IMG/VR virus record: IMGVR_UViG_3300015174_000004
Coordinates: 1 to 11,335 of that record
DNA: 11,335 nt
From: a virus
Taxonomy: Duplodnaviria; Heunggongvirae; Uroviricota; Caudoviricetes
Strand: one strand, 5' to 3'
Made by a program: the position numbers and the translations under genes. The notes under the pieces were generated by a model. The model saw only the letters and a program-made list of their open reading frames with translations. It was not told where the DNA came from and ran no database searches. Below, piece by piece: positions 1-11,335 of the stretch; the first letter of the stretch is position 1; each line of letters begins with the position of its first letter.

Positions 1-1077
1 GATGAATGGAACCAGCAGGAGGCCGCCCGCATTGCGACAGAAGCATACTCATCCTCAATGATCCAGCGCACCAACCAGATTAAAGAAAATCTTGGTTATC
101 TTGAGACTGCATGTAAAGCAGTCGCAAACTCCGCAAAATGGGCATGGGATTCCATGCTGGATATTGGCAGTGAGGCCTCCCTTGATCAAAAAATCTCAGA
201 TGTTCTACGTCAAATTGATGAAATAGAAAAAAATACCCGACCCGGAGTTTTCGGGTTAGGTGGCATTGGAGATGGCGGAGCTCAAAATAAAAAGCTGGCA
301 CGATTAAAGCAGCAATTGGGCGTACTTCAAGCAGAAAAAATTGCTCAGGACGTACTAAATTCATCAATAAACGATTACAACAAGCGACAACAGGAAGGAA
401 TTGAACTCAGACAGAGAGCAGATGCTTTTTCAAAACAATATCAGACCCGGGAGCAGCAGAGAGCTAGTGAACTTGCAAAACTGGAAAAGCTAAAGAATCA
501 GTATTCAAAGGAAGAATATAATAATCTTATCGCTCAAATAAATGAGCGTTATAAAGATCCAAAGCAACCAAAGGCGAAAGGTTATTCGGATGATGCTGCC
601 CAACGAGTGATTGATCATCTGAATCAACAGAATGCGTTACTAAGTTCACAAGCTGAATTGACCGTTAAATTAAGTTCCTCTGAACAGGAACTGGTTAAGT
701 GGCGTCAGCAGATTGCCGACCTGGAGTCACGACCGTCATCGAAATTAACCCAGGATCAGAAATCGCTTCTCTTACACCGGGAAGAAATAACCGCGTTGAT
801 GGAGAAAAATGTTGCGATTGAAAAAAATAACAGGCTAATCAAGGAATCCGCCGAAATAGCTGCATGGCGTGATTCATTGCAGGCTTCAATTGATAATCGT
901 CAGCAGGGGTATGATATTCAGATTGCTGGTTATGGGGTTGGCGATAAAAATCAGCAACGCCAGCAGGAATTACTGCGGATTGAACGTGAATATAACAATC
1001 AGCGTCTGCAACTTGAACGTGACTATGCAGATAAATCCCGTGGGATGTCAAATCATGTTTTTCAGGAGAAAATGTAG
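1..1077 (+). CDS. Phage tail tape measure protein, 5'-partial; reading frame is closed by an in-frame TAG at 1075-1077
   Basis: Frame 1 is open from base 1 (the gene starts upstream of the window). The translation is rich in Q/E/K/R with coiled-coil character, typical of tape measure proteins, and it sits immediately upstream of the M-L-K-I-J tail-tip genes. The region is AT-rich compared with L-J. Confidence 0.7.
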   Translation, partial: DEWNQQEAARIATEAYSSSMIQRTNQIKENLGYLETACKAVANSAKWAWDSMLDIGSEASLDQKISDVLRQIDEIEKNTRPGVFGLGGIGDGGAQNKKLARLKQQLGVLQAEKIAQDVLNSSINDYNKRQQEGIELRQRADAFSKQYQTREQQRASELAKLEKLKNQYSKEEYNNLIAQINERYKDPKQPKAKGYSDDAAQRVIDHLNQQNALLSSQAELTVKLSSSEQELVKWRQQIADLESRPSSKLTQDQKSLLLHREEITALMEKNVAIEKNNRLIKESAEIAAWRDSLQASIDNRQQGYDIQIAGYGVGDKNQQRQQELLRIEREYNNQRLQLERDYADKSRGMSNHVFQEKM

Positions 1078-1242
1078 GCTCTGAATGATGCTCTGGAACG
1101 AGAAAAAGAAATTGTCAGACAGAAAAACGAGCAGCTCGATATTCAGGCAGGAGACTGGGTTAGTGGTGCCTCCCAGGGATTCAATAACTGGCTGGATGAC
1201 ACTAAGGATATCAGTGAGCAGATAAAATCAACCACGACTCAG

Positions 1243-1812
1243 ATGTTTGATGGAATGACCGATGCGCTGGGTGATTTTGTCACGACAGGCAAGGCAAATT
1301 TTCGTTCTTTCGCTACTTCCGTGATTTCGGATCTTAGTCGAATAGCATTAAAGGCTTCAATTACTGGGATTTTCGACAGCATTAGTAACAGTTCTTCGGG
1401 GGGGATTTTAGGAACTATCGGGAGTGCTATTAGTAAATTTATTCCGAATGCAAAGGGCGGTGTTTATGAGTCTCCGTCATTGAACACGTATTCGAACGGT
1501 ATTTATGATTCCCCGCAATTTTTTGCTTTTGCAAAAGGGGCTGGTGTTTTTGGTGAGGCTGGTCCGGAAGCCATTATGCCATTAACACGAACTTCCGATG
1601 GTTCTCTTGGTGTCAGAGCTATTAATTGTAAAAGTGGTAATGGAGGCGGAGATATTACCTATGCCCCTGTATACCAAATCACTATTCAAAATGACGGCCA
1701 GAATGGAGAGATTGGCCCTCAGGCAATAAAAGCACTTATGGGGATGGTTGATCAGCGGGTGCAGGGCAATCTGTTAAATATGCGACGTGATGGGGGAATG
1801 TTAAGTGGCTAA
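1243..1812 (+). CDS. Tape measure protein C-terminal segment, same frame as 1-1077; the in-frame continuation actually begins at 1078 directly after the TAG
   Basis: Frame 1 has no stop from 1078 to the TAA at 1810-1812. The translation is Gly/Ser-rich and hydrophobic, as expected for a tape measure C-terminus. There is no Shine-Dalgarno sequence before the ATG at 1243, so independent initiation is unlikely. Together with 1-1077 this looks like one gene interrupted by one amber codon. Confidence 0.6.
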   Translation: MFDGMTDALGDFVTTGKANFRSFATSVISDLSRIALKASITGIFDSISNSSSGGILGTIGSAISKFIPNAKGGVYESPSLNTYSNGIYDSPQFFAFAKGAGVFGEAGPEAIMPLTRTSDGSLGVRAINCKSGNGGGDITYAPVYQITIQNDGQNGEIGPQAIKALMGMVDQRVQGNLLNMRRDGGMLSG

Positions 1813-2143
1813 TACGGAAGAATTTCACTGGTTACCAGAGGATGGAATGAAAACAGAAAATAAACCATCGATAAAAACTGTAAGATTTGGCGATGGTTAT
1901 GAGCAACGAAGTCCAAATGGACTTAATCATTCTCTGCGCGTTTTCACCTGTGATTTCAAAGTTGAGGCGAATGAACGTGATTCATTTGAAAAATTTTTAG
2001 CCCGGCATGAAGGCTATAAATCTTTTTTTTGGCGCCCGCCTGGTATTAACAGAAAAATCAGAGTGGTGTGTCGAACGTGGTCAGCGACAGAACATATCAC
2101 CTATACCGATTTTTCGTGTCAGTTTGACGAAGTGGTGATCTGA
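1805..2143 (+). CDS. M: Minor tail / tail-tip assembly protein, lambda gpM-like
   Basis: A 112-aa ORF with a GTG start at 1805, preceded by GGGGGAA, and overlapping the tape measure stop. It contains a VRFGDGY motif and has the size and position of lambda gpM. An alternative start is the ATG at 1847, which has a GAGGA upstream. Its stop TGA (2141-2143) overlaps the L start as TGATG. Confidence 0.75.
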   Translation: MANTEEFHWLPEDGMKTENKPSIKTVRFGDGYEQRSPNGLNHSLRVFTCDFKVEANERDSFEKFLARHEGYKSFFWRPPGINRKIRVVCRTWSATEHITYTDFSCQFDEVVI

Positions 2144-2841
2144 TGCAGGACATACAACAGGAAACGCTGAATGAATGCATTCGTGCGGAGCAGTCGGCCA
2201 GCGTGGTGCTCTGGGAAATCGACCTGACCGAGGTAGGCGGGGATCGCTACTTTTTCTGCAATGAGCAGAACGAGAAAGGAGAGTCTGTCACCTGGCAGAG
2301 TCGGCAGTATCAGGCCTATCCCATTCAGGGGAGTGGATTTGAGATGAACGGCAAAGGTGCCAGTGCAAGGCCAACGCTGAAAGTCTCTAATCTGCACGGC
2401 ATGGTCACCGGGATGGCGGAAGACCTGCAGAGTCTGGTCGGCGGAACGGTGGTCAGGCGTAAGGTTTACGCCCGTTTTCTGGATGCGGTGAACTTCGTCA
2501 ACGGAAACAGTGACGCCGATCCGGAGCAGGAGGTGATCAGCCGCTGGCGTATTGAGCAGTGCAGCGAACTGAGCGCGGTCAGTGCCTCCTTTGTACTGTC
2601 CACGCCGACGGAAACGGACGGTGCCGTTTTTCCGGGGCGCATCATGCTGGCTAATACCTGCACCTGGACCTATCGCGGTGATGAGTGCGGTTATCACGGT
2701 CCGGCGGTCGCGGATGAATATGACCAGCCGACATCCGAAATCACGAAGGATAAATGCAGCAAATGCCTGAGTGGCTGTAAGTTCCGCAATAATGTCGGCA
2801 ACTTTGGCGGCTTCCTTTCCATTAACAAACTTTCGCAGTAA
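2143..2841 (+). CDS. L: Minor tail protein L, lambda gpL-like
   Basis: A 232-aa ORF whose translation (MQDIQQETLNECIRAEQSASVVLWEIDLTEVGG... CSKCLSGCKFRNNVGNFGGFLSINKLSQ) matches lambda gpL as I recall it almost residue for residue. It includes the C-terminal Cys cluster. GC content rises abruptly at its start. Confidence 0.9.
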   Translation: MQDIQQETLNECIRAEQSASVVLWEIDLTEVGGDRYFFCNEQNEKGESVTWQSRQYQAYPIQGSGFEMNGKGASARPTLKVSNLHGMVTGMAEDLQSLVGGTVVRRKVYARFLDAVNFVNGNSDADPEQEVISRWRIEQCSELSAVSASFVLSTPTETDGAVFPGRIMLANTCTWTYRGDECGYHGPAVADEYDQPTSEITKDKCSKCLSGCKFRNNVGNFGGFLSINKLSQ

Positions 2842-2845
2842 TCCC

Positions 2846-3589
2846 ATGACAGAGACAGAATCAGCGATTCTGGCGCACGCCCGGCGATGTGCGCCAGCGG
2901 AGTCGTGCGGCTTCGTGGTGAGAACGTCGGAAGGGGAAAGATATTTTCCCTGCGTGAATATCTCCGGTGAGCCGGAGGATTATTTCCGGATGGCTCCGGA
3001 GGACTGGCTGCAGGCAGAAATGCAGGGTGAGATTGTGGCGCTGGTCCACAGCCACCCCGGTGGTCTGCCCTGGCTGAGTGAGGCTGACCGGCGGCTGCAG
3101 GTGCAGAGTGATTTGCCGTGGTTGCTGGTCTGCCGGGGGGCGATTCATAAGTTCCGCTGTGTGCCGCATCTCACCGGGCGGCGCTTTGAGCACGGGGTGA
3201 CGGACTGTTACACGCTGTTCCGGGATGCTTATCATCTGGCGGGGATTGAGATGCCGAATTTTCATCGCGGGGATGACTGGTGGCGTCACGGCCAGAATCT
3301 CTATCTGGATAATCTGGAGGCCACAGGGCTGTATCAGGTGCCGTTGTCATCAGCACAACCGGGCGATGTGCTGCTGTGCTGTTTTGGTTCATCGGTGCCG
3401 AATCATGCCGCCATTTACTGTGGTGACGGCGAGCTGCTGCACCATATTCCTGAACAACTGAGCAAACGAGAGAGGTATACCGACAAATGGCAGCGACGCA
3501 CACACTCCCTCTGGCGTCACCGGGCATGGCGCGAATCTGCCTTTACGGGGATTTACAACGATTTGGCCGCCGCATCGACCTGCGTGTGA
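2846..3589 (+). CDS. K: Tail-tip assembly protein K, lambda gpK-like, with an MPN/JAMM-type domain and an NlpC/P60-like domain
   Basis: A 247-aa ORF from the ATG at 2846, which lies 5 nt after the L stop. It has a JAMM-like motif (E...HSHPGGLPWLSEAD) and a papain-like Cys/His signature (TDCYTLF ... NHAAIY). A shorter alternative start is the ATG at 2990 (MAPEDW...). The six-frame ORF from 2771 overlaps L and is not the likely start. Confidence 0.8.
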   Translation: MTETESAILAHARRCAPAESCGFVVRTSEGERYFPCVNISGEPEDYFRMAPEDWLQAEMQGEIVALVHSHPGGLPWLSEADRRLQVQSDLPWLLVCRGAIHKFRCVPHLTGRRFEHGVTDCYTLFRDAYHLAGIEMPNFHRGDDWWRHGQNLYLDNLEATGLYQVPLSSAQPGDVLLCCFGSSVPNHAAIYCGDGELLHHIPEQLSKRERYTDKWQRRTHSLWRHRAWRESAFTGIYNDLAAASTCV

Positions 3590-4134
3590 AAACGGGGGCC
3601 GAAGCAGTCCGGGCGCTGACCACACAGCTTCCGGCGTTTCGTCAGAAACTGAGCGACGGCTGGTATCAGGTACGCATTGCCGGGCGTGATGCAGGTGAAA
3701 CTGAATTATCAGCCCGTCTTAATGAACCGCTGGCAAATGGTGCCGTGATCCACATTGTGCCGCGTCTGGCGGGAGCCAAAAGTGGCGGTCTTTTTCAGGC
3801 TGTGCTGGGGGCGGCGCTGATTGCGGTGGCATGGTGGAACCCTGCAGGTTGGTTGGGGGCTGCCGCAATTACAGGAATGTATGGTGCGGGGGCCAGTATG
3901 GTGCTCGGTGGTGTGGCGCAGATGCTGGCACCGAAAGCCAGAACTCCCCGTACACAGACAACGGATAACGGCAAACAGAACACCTATTTCTCCTCACTGG
4001 ATAACATGGTTGCCCAGGGCAATGTTCTGCCGGTTCTGTACGGTGAAATGCGCGTGGGGTCACGGGTGATTTCGCAGGAGATCAGCACGGCAGATGAAGG
4101 AGATGGTGGTCAGGTTGTGGTGATTGGTCGTTGA
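3487..4134 (+). CDS. I: Tail-tip assembly protein I, lambda gpI-like
   Basis: A 215-aa ORF with GAGAGAGG upstream of its ATG. It has a hydrophobic Gly/Ala-rich central segment and a C-terminus (YGEMRVGSRVISQEISTADEGDGGQVVVIGR) that resembles lambda gpI. It overlaps the 3' end of K by 103 nt in a different frame. Confidence 0.8.
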   Translation: MAATHTLPLASPGMARICLYGDLQRFGRRIDLRVKTGAEAVRALTTQLPAFRQKLSDGWYQVRIAGRDAGETELSARLNEPLANGAVIHIVPRLAGAKSGGLFQAVLGAALIAVAWWNPAGWLGAAAITGMYGAGASMVLGGVAQMLAPKARTPRTQTTDNGKQNTYFSSLDNMVAQGNVLPVLYGEMRVGSRVISQEISTADEGDGGQVVVIGR

Positions 4135-4151
4135 TGCAGAATGTTTTGTGT

Positions 4152-4173
4152 GAAACCGCCTCAGGGCGGTTTT
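4152..4173 (+). terminator. Perfect 8-9 bp hairpin (GAAACCGCC-TCAG-GGCGGTTTT) in the I-J intergenic spacer, followed by an interrupted T-tract; possible attenuator or RNA stability element
   Basis: The inverted repeat is read directly from the sequence between the I stop (4132-4134) and the J start (4195). The downstream T-run is interrupted (TTTTGTCGTTTCTGG), so termination would be partial at best. Confidence 0.3.
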
Positions 4174-4194
4174 GTCGTTTCTGGAGCGTGAGGA

Positions 4195-7100
4195 ATGGGT
4201 AAAGGCAGCAGTAAGGGGCATACCCCGCGCGAAGCGAAGGACAACCTGAAATCATCCCAGATGCTGAGCGTGATAGACGCCATCAGTGAAGGGCCGATTG
4301 AAGGTCCGGTGGACGGATTAAAAAGTGTGCTGCTGAATAGTACGCCGGTGCTGGACAGTGAGGGGAATACCAATATCTCCGGTGTCACGGTGGTGTTCCG
4401 GGCCGGTGAGCAGGAGCAGACACCGCCGGAGGGATTTGAATCCTCCGGCTCCGAGACGGTGCTGGGTACGGAAGTGAAGTACGACACGCCGATTACCCGG
4501 ACCATCACGTCTGCAAACATCGACCGTCTGCGCTTTACCTTCGGTGTGCAGGCACTGGTGGAAACCACCTCAAAGGGGGACCGGAATCCGTCGGAAGTCC
4601 GCCTGCTGGTTCAGATACAGCGTAACGGTGGCTGGGTGACGGAAAAAGACATCACCATTAAAGGCAAAACCACCTCGCAGTATCTGGCCTCGGTGGTGGT
4701 GGATAACCTGCCGCCGCGCCCGTTTAATATCCGGATGCGCAGGATGACGCCGGACAGCACCACAGACCAGCTGCAGAACAAAACGCTCTGGTCGTCATAC
4801 ACCGAAATCATCGATGTGAAACAGTGCTACCCGAACACGGCACTGGTCGGCGTACAGGTGGACTCGGAGCAGTTCGGCAGCCAGCAGGTGAGTCGTAATT
4901 ATCATCTTCGCGGGCGCATTCTGCAGGTGCCGTCGAACTATAACCCGCAGACGCGACAATACAGCGGTATCTGGGACGGAACGTTTAAGCCAGCATACAG
5001 CAACAACATGGCCTGGTGTCTGTGGGATATGCTGACCCATCCGCGCTACGGCATGGGAAAACGTCTTGGTGCGTCGGATGTGGATAAATGGGCGCTGTAT
5101 GTCATCGGCCAGTACTGCGACCAGTCGGTGCCGGACGGCTTTGGCGGCACGGAGCCGCGCATCACCTGTAATGCCTGGCTGACCACGCAGCGTAAGGCGT
5201 GGGATGTGCTCAGTGATTTCTGCTCGGCGATGCGCTGTATGCCGGTATGGAACGGGCAGACGCTGACGTTCGTGCAGGACCGACCATCAGATAAGGTGTG
5301 GACCTATAACCGCAGTAATGTGGTGATGCCGGATGATGGCGCGCCGTTCCGCTACAGCTTCAGCGCCCTGAAGGACCGCCATAATGCCGTTGAGGTGAAC
5401 TGGATTGACCCGAACAACGGCTGGGAGACGGCGACAGAGCTTGTTGAAGATACGCAGGCCATTGCCCGTTACGGTCGTAATGTCACGAAGATGGATGCCT
5501 TTGGCTGTACCAGCCGGGGGCAGGCACACCGCGCCGGGCTGTGGCTGATTAAAACGGAACTGCTGGAGACGCAGACCGTGGATTTCAGCGTGGGTGCTGA
5601 AGGGCTTCGCCATGTACCGGGCGATGTCATTGAAATCTGCGATGATGACTATGCCGGTATCAGCACCGGTGGTCGCGTGCTGGCGGTGAACAGCCAGACC
5701 CGGACGCTGACGCTCGACCGTGAAATCACGCTGCCATCCTCCGGTACCACGCTGATAAGCCTGGTTGACGGAAGTGGCAATCCGGTCAGCGTGGAGGTTC
5801 AGTCCGTCACCGACGGCGTGAAGGTAAAAGTGAGCCGTGTTCCTGACGGTGTTGCTGAATACAGCGTATGGGGGCTGAAGCTGCCGACGCTGCGCCAGCG
5901 ACTGTTCCGCTGCGTGAGTATCCGTGAGAACGACGACGGCACGTATGCCATCACCGCCGTGCAGCATGTGCCGGAAAAAGAAGCCATCGTGGATAACGGG
6001 GCGCACTTTGACGGCGACCAGAGCGGCACGGTGAATGGTGTCACGCCGCCAGCGGTGCAGCACCTGACCGCCGAAGTCACCGCAGACAGCGGGGAATATC
6101 AGGTGCTGGCGCGCTGGGACACGCCGAAGGTGGTGAAGGGCGTGAGCTTCCTGCTCCGTCTGACCGTAACAGCGGACGACGGCAGTGAGCGGCTGGTCAG
6201 CACGGCCCGGACGACGGAAACCACATACCGCTTCACGCAACTGGCGCTGGGGCGTTACACGCTGACAGTCCGGGCGGTAAATGCGTGGGGGCAGCAGGGC
6301 GATCCGGCATCGGTATCGTTCCGGATTGCGGCACCGGCAGCGCCTGTCACTATTGAACTGATACCAGGGTATTTTCAGATAACAGCGGTCCCGAAACTGG
6401 CTGTATATGACCCGACGGTGCAGTTTGAGTTCTGGTTCTCGGAAAAGCGGATTACCGATATCAGGCAGGTTGAAACCAGCGCGCGTTATCTTGGTACGGC
6501 GCTGTACTGGATAGCCGCCAGTAGCAATATTAAGCCGGGTTATGATTATTACTTTTATATCCGCAGCGTGAACACTGTTGGTAAATCGGCATTTGTGGAG
6601 GCCGTCGGTCGGGCGAGCGATGATGCGGAAGGTTATCTGAATTTTTATAAAGGGTTGATCAATAAAACGCATCTCGGCAAGGAACTGCTGGAAAACTTTG
6701 AGCTGACGGAAGATAACGCCAGCAAACTGGAGGAGTTTTCGAAAGAGTGGAAGGACGCTAACGATAAATGGAATGCCATGTGGGGCGTCAAAATTGAGCA
6801 GACCAAAGACGGCAAACATTATGTCGCGGGTATTGGCCTCAGCATGGAGGATACGGAGGAAGGCAAACTGAGCCAGTTCCTGGTTGCCGCTAACCGTATC
6901 GCGTTTATTGACCCGGCAAACGGGAATGAAACGCCGATGTTTGTGGCGCAGGGCAACCAGATATTCATGAACGACGTGTTCCTGAAACGCCTGACGGCCC
7001 CCACCATTACCAGCGGCGGTAATCCTCCGGCATTTTCCCTGACACCGGACGGGCGGCTGACGGCGAGAAATGCTGATATCAGCGGTAACGTGAATGCGAA

Positions 7101-7608
7101 CTCCGGGACGCTCAATAATGTCACGGTAAATGAAAACTGTACGATTAAGGGCATGCTGGAGGCGAACCAGGTCAGAGGTGACTTCGTTAAAACTGTATCC
7201 AAATCATTCCCGAAAAAGGCTGGTACGTGGGGTAACACGGAAACACCAAACGGGACGGTTACAGTCACCATTTACGATGATCATAACTTTGACCGCCAAA
7301 TCATTATTCCGCCCATTATTTTTAACGGTGTGGCGTATGACGATCCGGGGAGCGGTAATAACCCGGGAGGTACGCGATACACGGGTTATGGTTTTGAAGT
7401 TCGCAAAAATGGCGTATTAATCGCATCCAGAGAAACTAAAGGAGCCATTCCCGGTAGTTACAGTGCGGTTATTGATATGCCGAGTGGTGGTGGTAACGTC
7501 ACTCTGGAGTTTAAGATTTTCCAGAAAGGCAATCAGGGCGCAGGTAACATCACAGACTGTACGGTGATTGTGACCAAAAAAGCTGCTTCCGGTATCAGTA
7601 TCCGTTGA
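4195..7608 (+). CDS. J: Host specificity protein J (central tail fiber / tail tip), lambda gpJ-like
   Basis: A 1137-aa ORF with GGAG 8 nt upstream of its ATG. Its size, position after I, and N-terminal and central sequence are typical of lambda J. The last ~1 kb is visibly more AT-rich, consistent with an exchanged receptor-binding region. Confidence 0.9.
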
Positions 7609-7629
7609 AATATTTATAACCCCAATACG

Positions 7630-7657
7630 GGCGCCAGAAATGGCGCCTTTTTTATTT
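7630..7657 (+). terminator. Rho-independent terminator downstream of J
   Basis: GGCGCC-AGAAAT-GGCGCC forms a perfect GC-rich stem and is followed by TTTTTTATTT. It begins 22 nt after the J stop. Confidence 0.65.
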
Positions 7658-7668
7658 GTGGAGTGAGT

Positions 7669-10041
7669 ATGGCAGTACAGATTTCAGGTGTGCTGAAAGA
7701 TGGTGCGGGAAAACCAATACAGAACTGCACTATTCAACTGAAGGCAAAGCGTAACAGCACCACGGTACTGGTGAACACGGTGGCCTCTGAAAATCCGGAT
7801 GAAGCCGGGCGTTACAGCATGGATGTTGAGTATGGCCAGTACAGCGTTATCCTGCTGGTTGAAGGTTTTCCGCCTTCACATGCCGGAACCATTACCGTCT
7901 ATGAAGGTTCCAGACCAGGTACGCTGAATGATTTTCTCGGTGCCATGACGGAAGATGATGTCATGCCGGAGGCATTGCGTCGTTTTGAGGCAATGGTGGA
8001 AGAAGCGGCACGCAACGCTGAAGCCGCCTTTCAGAGCGCAGCGGCGGCAAAGAAATCCGAAGCTGCTGCGGCATCATCGAAGAACGCGGCGAAAAGCTCA
8101 GAAACGAATGCAGCTAACAGCGCACAGGCGGCAGCGGCCTCACAGACTGCATCGGCAAACTCCGCGACAGCAGCCCAAAAATCAGAAGCCAACGCGAAAA
8201 ATAGCGAAACAGCCGCAAAGACGAGCGAAACCAACGCGAAGTCCAGCCAGACGGCAGCGAAAACCAGCGAAACGAATGCCAAAGTCAGTGAAACTGCAGC
8301 GAAAAACAGCCAGGCTGCAGCAGCTGAAAGCGAGAGCGCAGCAGCCGGTTCTGCGACTTCAGCAGCTGGATTAGCAACTGCTGCGGCTAACAGCCAGAAA
8401 GCTGCGAAGGCGAGCGAAACTAACGCAAAGTCCAGCCAGACGGCAGCGAAGACCAGCGAAACGAATGCCAAAGCCAGCGAAACTGCGGCGAAAAGCAGTC
8501 AGGATGCAGCAGCCGAAAGCGAGAGTGCTGCAGCTGGTTCTGCAAGCGCGGCGGCTGCTTCTGCCACTGCATCAGCTAACAGTCAAAAAGCAGCAAAAAC
8601 CAGTGAAACCAACGCAAAGGTGAGCGAAACAGCGGCTGCGAACTCAGCGAAAGCATCGGCAGCAAGCCAGACGGCAGCTAAAGCAAGCGAAGATGCAGCC
8701 AGAGAGTACGCAAGCCAGGCTGCGGAGCCGTATAAATATGTCTTACAGCCGCTGCCTGATGTGTGGATACCATTTAACGATTCGCTGGATATGATTACGG
8801 GCTTTTCGCCGTCATATAAAAAGATTGTTATTGGTGATGATGAAATAACGATGCCTGGCGACAAGGTTGTTAAGTTTAAACGCGCATCGAAAGCAACCTA
8901 TATTAATAAATCTGGTGTGCTGACAGAGGCTGCCATTGACGAGCCACGGTTTGAACGTGATGGCCTGCTTATTGAGGGGCAAAGAACGAACTACATGCTC
9001 AATTCGGAAAGCCCTGCCAGTTGGGGGCGATCGTCAAATATGGATGTGCCCGAAACCGGGACGGATAGTTTTGGTTTTACCTATGGAAAGTTTGTCTGTA
9101 ACGATTCTCTGATTGGGCAAACCTCAGCCATTAATATGGCATCAATTGCTGCAACAAAGTCAGTTGATGTCTCAGGCGATAATAAACACGTGACAACCTC
9201 ATGTCGTTTTAAAACAGAACTGCAGGTAAGGTTGCGTATCCGGTTTGATAAATATGACGGTAGCGCAACAACTTTTCTTGGTGATGCGTATATTGATACA
9301 CAAACGCTTGAAATTAATATGACAGGCGGTGCTGCCTCAAGGATTACAGCGAGAGTCAGAAAGGACGAAGCTACCGGATGGATTTTTGCAGAGGCAACAA
9401 TTCAGGCAATTGATGGGGAGTTAAAAATAGGTTCTCAGATACAGTATTCTCCTAAGCAGGGCGGGGCAACCGTATCTGGTGACTATATTTATCTGGCCAC
9501 CCCACAAGTAGAAAATGGGCCTTGTGTATCATCTTTTATTATATCAGGAACGACGGCGGCGACCCGCGCAAGCGATATAGTTACAGTTCCAATTAAGAAT
9601 AATCTTTATAATCTTCCTTTTACGGTTCTTTGTGAGGTACATAAGAACTGGTATAAAACGCCAAATGCAGCGCCGCGTGTTTTTGACACCGGCGGTCATC
9701 AAACCGGAGCGGCTATTATTCTTGGCTTCGGTTCTTCAGCAGATTACGACGGATTTCCTTATTGCGATATTGGAGGAGCTAACAGACGGGTAAACGAAAA
9801 CGCATCGCTTGAAAAAATGGTTATGGGGATGCGTGTAAAGTCAGATCAGTCTACGTGCTCAGCAAGTAACGGGCGTATATCCAGCGAAACAAAAACCACA
9901 TGGTCCTGTATTCAGAACACCGCAATTATCCGTATTGGAGGCCAGACTACAGCCGGGTTACGTCATTTATTTGGTCATGTCAGGAATTTCAGAATATGGC
10001 ACAAGGCATTGACTGATGCTCAGGTGGGGGAGTCAATCTAA
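7669..10041 (+). CDS. stf: Side tail fiber protein: Stf-like N-terminus, Ala/Ser/Thr-rich repeat shaft, and a C-terminal domain with a LamG/concanavalin-like signature
   Basis: The ATG at 7669 is preceded by GGAG (7660-7663). The N-terminus (MAVQISGVLKDGAGKPIQNCTIQLKAKRNSTTV...GRYSMDVEYGQYSVIL) resembles lambda Stf. The middle is built from 7-aa repeats. The C-terminus ends in ...LFGHVRNFRIWHKALTDAQVGESI, which looks like the terminal strand of a LamG-like jelly-roll; this is a motif-level inference. The six-frame track starts at GTG 7663, but the ATG at 7669 is more likely. Confidence 0.85.
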   Translation: MAVQISGVLKDGAGKPIQNCTIQLKAKRNSTTVLVNTVASENPDEAGRYSMDVEYGQYSVILLVEGFPPSHAGTITVYEGSRPGTLNDFLGAMTEDDVMPEALRRFEAMVEEAARNAEAAFQSAAAAKKSEAAAASSKNAAKSSETNAANSAQAAAASQTASANSATAAQKSEANAKNSETAAKTSETNAKSSQTAAKTSETNAKVSETAAKNSQAAAAESESAAAGSATSAAGLATAAANSQKAAKASETNAKSSQTAAKTSETNAKASETAAKSSQDAAAESESAAAGSASAAAASATASANSQKAAKTSETNAKVSETAAANSAKASAASQTAAKASEDAAREYASQAAEPYKYVLQPLPDVWIPFNDSLDMITGFSPSYKKIVIGDDEITMPGDKVVKFKRASKATYINKSGVLTEAAIDEPRFERDGLLIEGQRTNYMLNSESPASWGRSSNMDVPETGTDSFGFTYGKFVCNDSLIGQTSAINMASIAATKSVDVSGDNKHVTTSCRFKTELQVRLRIRFDKYDGSATTFLGDAYIDTQTLEINMTGGAASRITARVRKDEATGWIFAEATIQAIDGELKIGSQIQYSPKQGGATVSGDYIYLATPQVENGPCVSSFIISGTTAATRASDIVTVPIKNNLYNLPFTVLCEVHKNWYKTPNAAPRVFDTGGHQTGAAIILGFGSSADYDGFPYCDIGGANRRVNENASLEKMVMGMRVKSDQSTCSASNGRISSETKTTWSCIQNTAIIRIGGQTTAGLRHLFGHVRNFRIWHKALTDAQVGESI
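8221..8598 (+). repeat. Two tandem 189-bp (63-aa) imperfect direct repeats inside stf, each built from nine 21-bp (7-aa) sub-repeats; degenerate copies extend from about 8040 to 8700
   Basis: Unit 1 (8221-8409) encodes TSETNAKSSQTAAKTSETNAKVSETAAKNSQAAAAESESAAAGSATSAAGLATAAANSQKAAK. Unit 2 (8410-8598) encodes ASETNAKSSQTAAKTSETNAKASETAAKSSQDAAAESESAAAGSASAAAASATASANSQKAAK. A third, partial unit starts at 8599. Confidence 0.8.
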
Positions 10042-10322
10042 TGAAAGATTTAACACTCAAATTTGAAGACAGGGCCGACTTTTCGGCCTTTATGGAGAGT
10101 ATTGGCTATTATGATGACGAGTCGATGCAGGATGATATTCTTATCGACGTGATAGGTAACGCGTACAAAGAAACCGGAGAACTGACTGAAGATGGCGAAC
10201 CGGTATGTGTTAAGGAAGACGGATATTTTGTAAACGTGCGCATCATTAATGATTCGCAAATATCGTCATTATTCGATGAGTACGTGGTTGCTGTTGAGCA
10301 TCAACTTCGTGGCTGGATGTGA
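10041..10322 (+). CDS. Hypothetical small, highly acidic protein (93 aa) of unknown function, translationally coupled to both neighbours
   Basis: Its ATG overlaps the stf stop as TAATG (10039-10043). Its TGA stop (10320-10322) lies inside the Shine-Dalgarno sequence (GAGGAAG) of the next gene. It has roughly 22 Asp/Glu against about 8 basic residues. I recognise no homologue. Confidence 0.55.
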   Translation: MKDLTLKFEDRADFSAFMESIGYYDDESMQDDILIDVIGNAYKETGELTEDGEPVCVKEDGYFVNVRIINDSQISSLFDEYVVAVEHQLRGWM

Positions 10323-10331
10323 GGAAGAAAA

Positions 10332-11268
10332 ATGGCTACATCGACAGTAATTCCTGATGACATCAAAACGCTAAAATCCGACGTTAGCAAATTAAAAAAC
10401 GATCAAGGAAGCTACGCAACAAAATTATATGTAGACAGCAAAGATGAAATCGTTGGTGACTGGTCTGCTTCATGGTATCAGCAGGTATTGCCAACTAGCG
10501 GAGCTATATTTGGGAGAAAACTCCGCTCAACTCACAGGACGGCAGGTGTTGAGGATGCGTATTGCGAACTATACCTCAAAAAATGGATAGACAGTCCAGG
10601 TAACGCAATGGCGCGCCTTAACCTGAACGATAACGGGACAAACATTTGCTGGGACTTTACCAACCTTTATGGCGGTACGATGATTTTTCCCGGTGACAGC
10701 GGATACCTCAAAATGGGTAACTGCCTTATGTCATACAGCAAGCGTGGAAGTAACGCGCTTATTAAATTTGATTACACCGACACATTACAGATCAAATATG
10801 CCAATCATGGGTCAACCATTACATTAAACACACAGGTAACCGCTTATGCTGGTGTTACTGCTCAATTGTGGGGCAACTCCAGCCGTCCTGTTGTTTATGA
10901 AGTCGGTGTTGATGGTGGCGCTTATATGTTCTATGCGCAGAAAAATACCGATAACACCTATATGTTAAGCGTTAATGGTGCATGTCATGCCACAGCATTT
11001 AACCAGCATTCAGACCGGGATCTGAAAGACAACATTCAGGTGATCGATAAAGCAACCGACCACATCCGTAAAATGAACGGCTATACATACACGCTTAAAG
11101 AAAACGGTATGCCCTATGCTGGTGTCATTGCACAGGAAGCTCTGGAAGCAATCCCAGAAGTTGTAGGTTCCGCAATGAAATATCAGGACGGTGCAAGCGG
11201 ATCGGAAGGTGAAGAAGGTGAACGTTATTACACAGTAGATTATTCTGGTGTTACTGGCTTGCTTGTTC
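10332..11268 (+). CDS. Short tail fiber / receptor-binding-like protein with a C-terminal intramolecular chaperone (peptidase S74-like) domain; 3'-truncated at the end of native sequence
   Basis: The ATG at 10332 follows GAGGAAG. The C-terminal region (HSDRDLKDNIQVIDKATDHIRKMNGYTYTL...YAGVIAQEALEAIPEVV) matches the hallmark of endosialidase/T5 pb1-type self-cleaving chaperone domains. It has a Ser-x4-Lys pair (S227 at 11010-11012, K232 at 11025-11027). The apparent end of the ORF (IGRASCRERV, stop at 11301-11303) is encoded by adapter sequence, so the true C-terminus is missing. Confidence 0.7.
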
Positions 11269-11335
11269 AGATCGGAAGAGCGTCGTGTAGGGAAAGAGTG
11301 TAGATCTCGGTGGTCGCCGTATCATTAAAAAAAAA
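11269..11335 (+). other. Non-biological sequence: Illumina TruSeq adapter read-through (11269-11326) followed by a 9-nt poly-A (11327-11335)
   Basis: The 58 nt AGATCGGAAGAGCGTCGTGTAGGGAAAGAGTGTAGATCTCGGTGGTCGCCGTATCATT is the standard Illumina adapter-trimming sequence, which is the reverse complement of the universal P5 adapter. It is followed by nine A's at the contig terminus. Confidence 0.92.

What the first reader, a model, noticed from the sequence alone, without database searches (positions are those of the whole stretch)
1075..1077. Single in-frame amber codon interrupts the tape measure gene
Frame 1 is open from base 1 to 1812 except for one TAG at 1075-1077. Protein character continues on both sides (...HVFQEKM * ALNDALEREKEIVRQ...). 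There is no ribosome-binding site before the next ATG at 1243, so the C-terminal 245 codons would not be made. A truncated tape measure normally abolishes tail assembly. The options are a defective prophage, an amber mutant grown on a suppressor host, a sequencing or assembly error, or low-level readthrough. Given the adapter at the contig end, an error is a real possibility.
Basis: seen in the sequence. Interest (0 to 1): 0.55.

Follow-up and report, generated by a model that had tools for sequence, protein, structure and literature searches.

The report
Amber-inactivated Rac prophage tape measure
The stop codon is a real, already catalogued C-to-T nonsense mutation (Gln833 to amber) in the tail tape measure gene of a Rac-type E. 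coli prophage, so it is ordinary prophage decay and not a sequencing error or recoding.

Summary
Frame 1 is open from 1 to 1812 apart from one TAG at 1075-1077. The gene is the 3' 604 codons of a 1077-codon lambda-gpH-type tape measure in a Rac-position E. coli prophage, and the TAG is codon 833.

About 673 complete E. coli genomes have CAG (Gln) at this codon. Thirty-three carry exactly this TAG: 32 share one clonal haplotype and one (EC2) has a different haplotype. RefSeq annotates the gene there as a pseudogene ("internal stop"). The exact 832-aa truncated product occurs on 525 contigs.

The window is not from that clone. Its backbone is 99.9% identical to CH4796-type prophages with an intact gene, except for a 130-689 bp patch of alleles that contains the TAG. 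A sister ENA contig shares the TAG.

The truncation removes the Tape_meas_lam_C domain and the C-terminal helix that anchors gpH in the lambda tail tip. I found no restart site, no suppressor tRNA in the prophage, no readthrough structure and no other in-frame TAG.

Carriers show further decay (IS1 or IS5 in the same gene, a frameshifted ydaU). Other lineages carry different ambers (codons 372, 612, 776, 795).

Verdict: a real inherited nonsense allele in a decaying prophage. It is already known and of low interest.

The parts
1..1074 (+). Codons 475-832 of the lambda-gpH-type tail tape measure gene. The 5' end is cut by the contig start, which falls just after the conserved TMP_2 domain (residues 267-471).
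   Evidence: Translation. Full-length orthologues of 1077 aa. Pfam TMP_2, TMP_4 and Tape_meas_lam_C. Alignment to lambda gpH, PDB 8IYK.
1075..1077 (+). Amber codon TAG at codon 833, derived from CAG (Gln) by a C-to-T transition at base 1075.
   Evidence: Alignment with orthologues. 55-mer tests: 33 genomes with T, 673 with C. PGAP note 'internal stop'.
1078..1812 (+). The untranslated remainder of the tape measure gene (codons 834-1077 plus TAA). It encodes Tape_meas_lam_C (about 1150-1374) and the C-terminal segment homologous to lambda gpH 818-849 (about 1711-1809), which forms the coiled coil seated on the gpI plug in the tail tip.
   Evidence: Pfam. PDB alignment. PMC10721106.
1243..1812 (+). 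A 189-aa ORF that gene callers report as a separate 'tape measure' CDS. It is an artefact of the upstream stop, it has no ribosome-binding site, and it is not an independent gene.
   Evidence: ORF list. Upstream sequence. Annotated as a second CDS in ON470581 and ON470595. Called on the sister contig.
1065..1194 (+). A patch of six linked differences from the otherwise near-identical CH4796-type backbone (1065 G, 1075 T, 1101 A, 1120 C, 1170 C, 1194 G). The alleles match the ST38-type/473R12-type haplotypes. It is probably a short recombination tract (130-689 bp) that brought in the TAG.
   Evidence: Mismatch maps and haplotype table.
1847..11268 (+). Intact downstream tail genes: M (1847-2143), L (2143-2841), K (2846-3589), I (3586-4134), J (4195-7608), side-tail-fibre N-terminal protein (7669-10041), a 93-aa ORF (10041-10322), and a tail-fibre-domain protein (10332 onward, cut by the adapter).
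   Evidence: No internal stops. Zero mismatches to the annotated CH4796 genes between 1195 and 10819. Pfam families on the sister contig.
11269..11335 (.). Illumina TruSeq universal adapter (58 nt) followed by poly-A. This is not biological sequence.
   Evidence: The genomic match ends at 11270.

Best explanation
The TAG is a genuine, heritable CAG-to-TAG nonsense mutation at Gln833 of the 1077-residue tape measure protein (a lambda gpH homologue). The gene belongs to a full-length Rac-family prophage integrated beside ttcA in E. coli.

Inferred mechanism: release factor 1 terminates translation at the TAG and gives an 832-residue N-terminal fragment. That fragment lacks the Tape_meas_lam_C domain and the extreme C-terminal helix. 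In lambda, this helix forms the trimeric coiled coil docked on the gpI plug inside the J/L/I tail tip. Without it the protein cannot be anchored in the tail initiator, so the prophage cannot build its own tails. At most, rare near-cognate readthrough by tRNA-Gln would regenerate the wild-type protein.

The gene is therefore a pseudogene, an early step on the decay path that in K-12 Rac has gone as far as deleting most of the gene (the ynaA remnant). In this window the allele sits on a CH4796-type backbone inside a short patch of foreign alleles. It most likely arrived by a short homologous-recombination tract from a TAG-bearing Rac allele.
For: Shown:
- The TAG is at codon 833, and orthologues have CAG there.
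- 33 complete genomes carry T at this base and 673 carry C.
- 30 of the carriers are 100% identical over 1812 nt. Sister genomes differ by one base and are absent from the TAG list, so the allele is clonal and young.
- PGAP flags the gene as a pseudogene with an 'internal stop'.
- The exact truncated products are on 525 contigs (ST38-type) and 23 contigs (EC2-type).
- The sister contig ERZ27315465 k141_221 has the same TAG.
- The locus is Rac: intR-xisR-ralR-recET-kilR-racR-ydaSTUV ... trkG-ynaK-ydaY-TMP ... next to ttcA and uspF/ompN.
- The lost region holds PF09718 and aligns with lambda gpH through residue 850. gpH residues 818-849 form the coiled coil on the gpI plug (PMC10721106).
- There is no in-frame start before 1243 and no SD motif there.
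- The only tRNAs in the roughly 40 kb scanned (late region) are Thr(tgt) and Gly(tcc). The one tRNA annotated just upstream is a further Thr, and the window itself has none.
- No significant local structure and no other in-frame TAG in about 3,500 downstream codons.
- Secondary decay in carriers: IS1 in EC2, IS5 in ECSC054, frameshifted ydaU, partial ynaK and tfa.
- Independent ambers at codons 372, 612, 776 and 795 in other lineages.
- dN/dS of about 0.2 between haplotypes, so the gene was constrained until recently.
- The window differs from CH4796 at only 15 of 11270 sites, 6 of them clustered at 1065-1194 around the TAG.

Inferred: the loss of tail assembly, from lambda genetics and structure.
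Against: - No reads are available for this contig.
- The contig carries untrimmed adapter and a set of private, mostly G:C-to-T:A substitutions, so its base accuracy is not beyond doubt.
- Loss of tail assembly was not tested for this phage.
- The window covers only the tail genes, so I cannot tell whether its prophage is otherwise intact or inducible.
- The same TAG lies on the EC2 haplotype within a tract of at most 35-49 bp. That points to recurrent mutation rather than recombination there, so recombinational import into the window lineage is likely but not proven.
Confidence: 0.9

Rival explanations
1. The TAG is real in the sample but is not physically linked to this backbone. In this reading the contig is a short-read consensus of two co-occurring E. 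coli strains (a CH4796-type strain and an ST38-type TAG carrier), and the assembler switched strain at one bubble.
For: The source looks like a MEGAHIT-style short-read assembly with untrimmed adapters. The window and its sister contig differ at the patch boundary, at 1170 and 1194. The ST38-type allele is common, also in metagenomes.
Against: The window follows the CH4796-type backbone without a single switch from 1195 to 10819, where the ST38 type differs at 270 aligned sites. The sister contig has none of those 270 alleles. Both assemblies share the same patch and the same private alleles.
Confidence: 0.08
2. The TAG is a sequencing or assembly error specific to this contig.
For: There is adapter at the contig end. 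The private substitutions of the window and its sister contig are dominated by G:C-to-T:A changes, which are typical of oxidative damage or error.
Against: C-to-T is not that error type. The change reproduces exactly a known natural allele and sits among linked natural alleles. The sister contig has it as well. By my rough estimate, the chance that a random error hits this base with this change is around 1e-4, whereas about 10% of genomes with the matching local haplotype carry TAG.
Confidence: 0.02
3. The stop is functionally bypassed, by a suppressor tRNA or by programmed or efficient readthrough, so the phage still makes enough full-length tape measure to be viable.
For: Near-cognate decoding of UAG by tRNA-Gln would restore the wild-type residue, and only three tape measure copies are needed per tail (established knowledge; trimer in PMC10721106). 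All seven or more nonsense lineages found are CAG-to-TAG.
Against: There is no suppressor tRNA in the prophage region scanned. supE-type tRNA was seen only in genomes of about 4.5-4.8 Mb, mostly named K-12 lab strains, among the listed hits. There is no downstream stimulatory structure. The stop is absent from about 95% of orthologues, so it is not a conserved recoding site. Carriers accumulate IS insertions and frameshifts in the same gene, as expected for a dead gene.
Confidence: 0.03
4. The truncation is adaptive. The 832-aa fragment would have a function of its own for the host, for example poisoning tail assembly of related lambdoid phages, which would explain why the same codon is hit on several haplotypes.
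For: The same TAG lies on at least three haplotype backgrounds (ST38-type, EC2-type, window-type) and is carried by a globally successful clone. Codon 795 is also hit on two backgrounds.
Against: Other lineages truncate at 372, 612, 776 and 795 or break the gene with IS elements, so no particular product is preserved. Abundance is explained by clonal expansion. EC2 and ECSC054 carry further insertions in the same gene. The numbers are small, and codon 833 was chosen because the window has it.
Confidence: 0.03

Closest known systems
RefSeq/PGAP pseudogene 'phage tail tape measure protein, internal stop' (e.g. C4R22_RS00845 in E. coli 266917_2, NZ_CP026723.1) and the split CDS pair in GenBank prophage records ON470581, ON470585, ON470587, ON470595, ON470602
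   Same: The identical nucleotide change at the identical codon of the orthologous gene. The 55-mer around it is 100% identical.
   Different: Those records carry the ST38-type haplotype: 20 differences over 1812 nt and about 97% identity over the tail genes. The window has a CH4796-type backbone.
Classical lambda H amber (Ham) tail mutants
   Same: An amber codon in a gpH-type tape measure. The expected phenotype is heads without tails unless suppressed (established lambda genetics; homology).
   Different: Ham mutants are laboratory conditional lethals propagated on suppressor hosts. This is a natural allele fixed in wild E. coli lineages with no suppressor detected.
Cryptic prophage Rac of E. 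coli K-12 (ynaA tape-measure remnant)
   Same: The same chromosomal locus and gene order: racR-ydaSTUV ... trkG-ynaK-ydaY-TMP ... stf, between ttcA and uspF/ompN.
   Different: K-12 Rac has lost the head genes, most of the tape measure and M-L-K-I-J. The prophage type in this window still has them all, and its tape measure is broken by a single base.
Programmed stop-codon readthrough or stop-codon reassignment in phages
   Same: A single in-frame stop with coding sequence on both sides.
   Different: The stop is not conserved among orthologues, no stimulatory structure is present, there are no other in-frame TAGs, and the host uses the standard code.

Membership tests
Lambda gpH-type tail tape measure protein | Domain content TMP_2 + TMP_4 + Tape_meas_lam_C | tested here: met
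   In the full-length orthologue: PF06791 E=2.7e-81, PF24622 E=1.2e-23, PF09718 E=3.9e-26. PF09718 is also found in the window downstream of the stop.
Lambda gpH-type tail tape measure protein | Colinear homology to lambda gpH through the C-terminus | tested here: met
   phmmer against PDB 8IYK chain H, E=9e-72, query 268-1077 aligned to gpH 55-850.
Lambda gpH-type tail tape measure protein | Synteny: tube, G/T-like chaperones, H, M, L, K, I, J | tested here: met
   Annotated neighbours in relatives and ORFs in the window.
Lambda gpH-type tail tape measure protein | One uninterrupted reading frame giving a full-length product | tested here: not met
   TAG at codon 833. The window copy is a pseudogene of this family.
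Rac-family prophage of E. coli | Integration beside ttcA with intR/xisR, recET, racR-ydaST, trkG, ynaK, ydaY | tested here: met
   Met in the TAG carrier 266917_2 and in K-12. The window itself lacks flanks, but it is 99.9% identical to the CH4796 region, which is flanked by ydaY and sitD.
Pseudogene by nonsense mutation (prophage decay) | Sense codon at the site in most orthologues | tested here: met
   CAG in 673 genomes versus TAG in 33.
Pseudogene by nonsense mutation (prophage decay) | No suppression or restart that would rescue the product | tested here: met
   No suppressor tRNA in the prophage stretch scanned or in the window. supE-type tRNA was not seen in carriers among the listed hits (98 of 158 hits were not inspected). 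No in-frame start before 1243 and no SD motif there. Protein-level absence was not testable.
Pseudogene by nonsense mutation (prophage decay) | Secondary lesions accumulating in carriers or in parallel lineages | tested here: met
   IS1 (EC2), IS5 (ECSC054), ISKpn26 plus a frameshift (GDSC2239PM), frameshifted ydaU, and other ambers at 372, 612, 776 and 795.
Programmed readthrough / stop-codon recoding | Stop conserved at the site among homologues | tested here: not met
   About 95% of orthologues have CAG.
Programmed readthrough / stop-codon recoding | Stimulatory downstream structure, or several in-frame stops of the same kind across genes | tested here: not met
   Folding energies near the site are weak (-2.5 to -6.7 kcal/mol; no shuffle control was run). 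No other in-frame TAG occurs in the eight downstream genes.
Sequencing/assembly artefact | Variant unique to this contig and unsupported elsewhere | tested here: not met
   The same allele is in 33 complete genomes, 5 GenBank prophage records, 5 metagenome contigs and a sister contig. The read pile-up itself is not testable with these tools.

The most novel reading that the evidence does not exclude
Nonsense inactivation of this tape measure may not be random. All seven or more independent nonsense lineages found in complete genomes are CAG-to-TAG (61 of 118 transition targets are CAG). Two codons, 795 and 833, are each hit on unrelated haplotypes, with identical tracts as short as 35-97 bp. 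This could reflect a site-specific C-to-T hotspot of unknown cause (the site is not a Dcm site and no quasi-palindrome was found). It could also reflect selection for amber-at-Gln alleles: either because rare tRNA-Gln readthrough regenerates the wild-type protein (a leaky, bet-hedging knock-down), or because the truncated fragment interferes with tail assembly of competing lambdoid phages.
Probability: 0.06. Interest if true: 0.45.

Novelty: already known. Interest (0 to 1): 0.1.

Why it matters
It matters little beyond annotation hygiene.

- The 189-aa ORF at 1243-1812, and the two 'tape measure' CDSs in several GenBank prophage records, should be read as one pseudogene.
- PHASTER-type 'intact prophage' calls for this element are unreliable. 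The preprint 10.1101/2022.06.29.498070 classed the TAG carriers as intact prophages.
- The case is a clean, datable example of step-wise decay of the ancient Rac prophage. It marks a widespread E. coli clone whose members include a record named 'strain ST38'.
- The parallel CAG-to-TAG hits might interest people who study prophage domestication or mutational hotspots, but the numbers here are too small to claim anything.

Tried and rejected
1. Sequencing error: rejected (see the rival explanations).

2. Suppressor host: a supE-type glnV(CUA) 55-mer hit 158 genomes. The 60 listed are all about 4.5-4.8 Mb, mostly named K-12 laboratory derivatives, and none is a TAG carrier. The other 98 were not inspected.

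3. Prophage-encoded suppressor tRNA: in the 40-kb late region only Thr(tgt) and Gly(tcc) were found. The window has no tRNA.

4. Mutational mechanism: I found no inverted or direct repeat that would template C-to-T, and only weak local folding. The context ATG-CAG-GCT is not a Dcm CCWGG site.

5. 'Induced phage' evidence: the vB_EcoS records turned out to be PHASTER predictions from Illumina/SPAdes assemblies, not virion DNA. They say nothing about viability.

6. IMG/VR viral contigs: no exact match to the TAG 47-mer.

7. Survey of all other transition-nonsense alleles: the first two query designs (plain concatenation, 2-nt spacers) gave junction-seed artefacts. This was shown by intact genes in ST361 and E21845/O/A. 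Only the N-spaced design is used.

8. The window's own record was not retrievable. Only the sister contig was found, plus a 'JGI/IMG, ENA' cluster entry with contig length 11335.

9. Sequence type of the carriers: not verified by MLST. 'ST38-type' is only my label, taken from one record name and from the preprint's list of STs.

Full report
**Observation.** Frame 1 of the window is open from base 1 to the TAA at 1810-1812, except for one TAG at 1075-1077. Frames 2 and 3 of the same stretch contain 30 and 57 stops, and about 39 are expected in 604 random codons. The frame is therefore truly coding and the stop is a lesion in it. The next in-frame start is the ATG at 1243. The 30 bases before it (AGTGAGCAGATAAAATCAACCACGACTCAG) hold no Shine-Dalgarno-like motif.

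**What the gene is.** The 1812-nt stretch matches 735 of 5,426 complete E. coli genomes at 90-99.4% identity, annotated as 'phage tail tape measure protein'. The full gene has 1077 codons. The window starts at codon 475 and the TAG is codon 833.
- The full-length protein carries Pfam TMP_2, TMP_4 and Tape_meas_lam_C.
- It aligns with lambda gpH (PDB 8IYK/8IYL/8K35) from residue 268 to its last residue (E=9e-72).
- Downstream are intact M, L, K, I, J and tail-fibre genes.
- In complete genomes the element is a full-length Rac prophage: ttcA | intR-xisR-ralR-recT-recE-kilR-racR-ydaS-ydaT-ydaU-ydaV ... lysis genes-trkG-ynaK-head genes-tail genes-ydaY-TMP-M-L-K-I-J-stf ... | (sitABCD) uspF-ompN.
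- K-12's 'cryptic prophage Rac' occupies the same locus but retains only an N-terminal tape-measure remnant, ynaA.

**What sits at the codon elsewhere.** Relatives have CAG (Gln), so the window carries a C-to-T transition at base 1075. I used a 55-mer centred on that base. Megablast needs an exact 28-mer, so every seed must include the base.
- The T version hits 33 complete genomes and the C version hits 673.
- 30 of the T carriers are 100% identical to one another over all 1812 nt, and two more are 99.9% identical (one of these has an IS5 insertion).
- Sister genomes (strain 144, Z142-2/4/7, 19A14 and others) differ by one base over 1812 nt and are absent from the TAG hit list, so the differing base is very probably 1075. 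The TAG would then be a young mutation carried by one clone. I call this clone 'ST38-type' after one record name; I did not check MLST.
- RefSeq annotates the gene in these genomes as a pseudogene with an 'internal stop'.
- The exact 832-aa truncated protein is on 525 contigs of the large protein collection.
- Five metagenome contigs also carry the allele.
- Five GenBank 'phage' records (vB_EcoS-606R9, -689R7, -611R4, -683R6, -885R8) have the same TAG, annotated as two CDSs. According to the preprint that describes them, these are PHASTER predictions from Illumina/SPAdes assemblies of clinical isolates, not virion sequences.

A one-off sequencing error is therefore excluded as the origin of this allele.

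**Where the window's copy comes from.** The window is not from the ST38-type clone.
- Over 11,270 nt it is 99.9% identical to CH4796, HYM1 and several draft genomes that have an intact 1077-codon gene.
- ST38-type prophages are only about 97% identical to it.
- Against CH4796 there are 15 differences in three clusters: 7-207, 1065-1194 and 10820-11062. None lies between 1195 and 10819.
- The middle cluster (1065 G, 1075 T, 1101 A, 1120 C, 1170 C, 1194 G) matches the ST38-type and 473R12-type alleles exactly. From 904 to 1592 the window is identical to the ST38-type sequence.
- The simplest reading is a recombination tract of 130-689 bp that imported the TAG together with its flanking alleles.
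- An independent ENA contig (ERZ27315465, MEGAHIT k141_221) starts at the same base, has the same TAG and the same private alleles, and also ends in adapter. It differs at 12 sites, including 1170 and 1194.
- A two-strain assembly chimera is unlikely. Neither contig takes a single ST38-type allele at the 270 sites that distinguish the two types between 1195 and 10819.

The substitutions private to these two contigs are mostly G:C-to-T:A transversions. That is a signature of oxidative damage, sequencing error or a mutY-type mutator. It is a reason for some caution about the contig, but the C-to-T at 1075 is not of that type and reproduces a known allele within a block of known alleles.

**Consequences (inferred).** The 245 lost codons include Tape_meas_lam_C (window about 1150-1374) and the conserved extreme C-terminus. 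In lambda, gpH residues 818-849 form a trimeric coiled coil that rests on the gpI plug in the lumen of the J/L/I tail tip (PMC10721106). These residues align with codons of about 1045-1077 here. By analogy with lambda H amber mutants, an 832-residue fragment cannot be anchored in the tail initiator, so no tails should form.
- Rescue is not evident.
- There is no in-frame restart.
- No suppressor tRNA was found in the 40 kb of prophage scanned (late region) or in the window.
- supE-type tRNA-Gln(CUA) appears only in genomes of about 4.5-4.8 Mb, mostly named K-12 laboratory derivatives, among the 60 listed of 158 hits, while the carriers are 5.07-5.49 Mb natural isolates.
- There is no notable structure near the site.
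- No other in-frame TAG occurs in the eight downstream genes.
- Basal near-cognate readthrough by tRNA-Gln would regenerate the wild-type protein at low frequency. This rests on general knowledge and was not tested here.

**Evidence that the gene is decaying.**
- dN/dS between haplotypes is about 0.2 (19 synonymous and 13 non-synonymous codon differences between CH4796 and 266917_2). The gene was therefore under constraint until recently.
- EC2 has an IS1 about 100 bp downstream of the TAG and a frameshifted tail tube gene.
- ECSC054 has an IS5 in the same gene.
- 266917_2 has a frameshifted ydaU and partial ynaK and tfa.
- Another lineage (21 contigs) is broken near codon 626.

I also surveyed all 117 other single-transition nonsense alleles of the gene. 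The query was made of N-spaced 55-mers, after two flawed designs (exposed). It found only five further genomes:
- TAG at codon 795 in TUM9803 (CH4796-type haplotype) and in GDSC2239PM (EC2-like haplotype, which also has ISKpn26 and a frameshift);
- TAG at codon 372 in 600029;
- TAG at codon 612 in MFDS1016424;
- TAG at codon 776 in MB07011.

The gene has 61 CAG, 31 CAA, 12 CGA and 7 TGG codons, so it is a large nonsense target.

**An unexplained detail.** The same TAG at codon 833 also occurs in EC2, on a clearly different haplotype with differing sites only 10 nt upstream and 26 nt downstream. That truncated product is on 23 contigs, and an EC2-like protein with Gln833 exists (P0013). Codon 795 is likewise hit on two unrelated haplotypes, and all nonsense events found are CAG-to-TAG. 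This could mean hotspots, very short conversion tracts or selection. The numbers are small, codon 833 was chosen because the window has it, and I found no mechanism (no Dcm site, no quasi-palindrome). I record it as a curiosity, not a finding.

**Verdict.** It is a genuine, inherited nonsense allele that makes the tape measure gene of a Rac-type prophage a pseudogene. The allele is already represented and flagged in public annotation. It is not a sequencing error, not an amber mutant kept on a suppressor host, not recoding, and not two genes. Interest is low.

Noticed in passing
window 7, 114, 169, 207, 10820, 10837, 11012, 11051, 11062; L009 849, 2796, 3047, 6993, 7030, 9376, 9690, 9706: Substitutions private to the window and/or its sister contig, relative to all natural haplotypes, are mostly G:C-to-T:A transversions: 12 of 17 (6 of the 9 changes in the window, 6 of the 8 private to L009). 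In the window they cluster at the contig ends. This is a signature of oxidative damage, sequencing error or a mutY/mutM mutator. In L009 a stop in the side-tail-fibre gene ends at 9708, next to the G-to-T at 9706, and the gene is called at only 679 aa.
   Followed up: partly
window 961-963 and 1075-1077; L008, L025, L030, L031: Parallel nonsense hits. Codon 833 TAG lies on the ST38-type, EC2-type and window-type haplotypes. Codon 795 TAG lies on a CH4796-type haplotype (TUM9803) and an EC2-like one (GDSC2239PM). All nonsense alleles found (codons 372, 612, 776, 795, 833) are CAG-to-TAG, and none are at CAA, CGA or TGG codons.
   Followed up: partly
window 1; L009 1: The window and the independent ENA contig start at exactly the same base, just after the conserved TMP_2 domain (residues 267-471). 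A likely cause is an assembly-graph branch where several lambdoid prophages share the upstream sequence.
   Followed up: no
window 11269-11335: Untrimmed Illumina TruSeq universal adapter plus poly-A at the 3' end. It truncates the last tail-fibre-domain gene (10332 onward), which is 346 aa in CH4796.
   Followed up: yes
window 7609-7668 versus L005 26696-27295: The window/CH4796-type prophage has no lom/ail-family gene between J and the side tail fibre gene, whereas the ST38-type prophage has one. The tail modules are mosaic between Rac variants.
   Followed up: no
L024 25264-28657 (NZ_CP026723.1): The ST38-type Rac prophage carries the annotated anti-phage pair iteA/iteS between the replication and late genes, plus ralR and kilR. 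These cargo genes could keep a tail-less prophage useful to its host.
   Followed up: no
L001, L004 (ON470581, ON470595): GenBank 'Escherichia phage vB_EcoS-...' records classed as intact prophages by PHASTER contain this broken tape measure, annotated as two CDSs. In 683R6 the K gene also appears disrupted.
   Followed up: partly
L019 (ERZ841116 NODE_19450, coverage 1.5): A low-coverage metagenome contig shows the TAG on a 473R12-like downstream haplotype. This may be a fourth background, but the contig is noisy (93.7% identity, 8 gaps).
   Followed up: no
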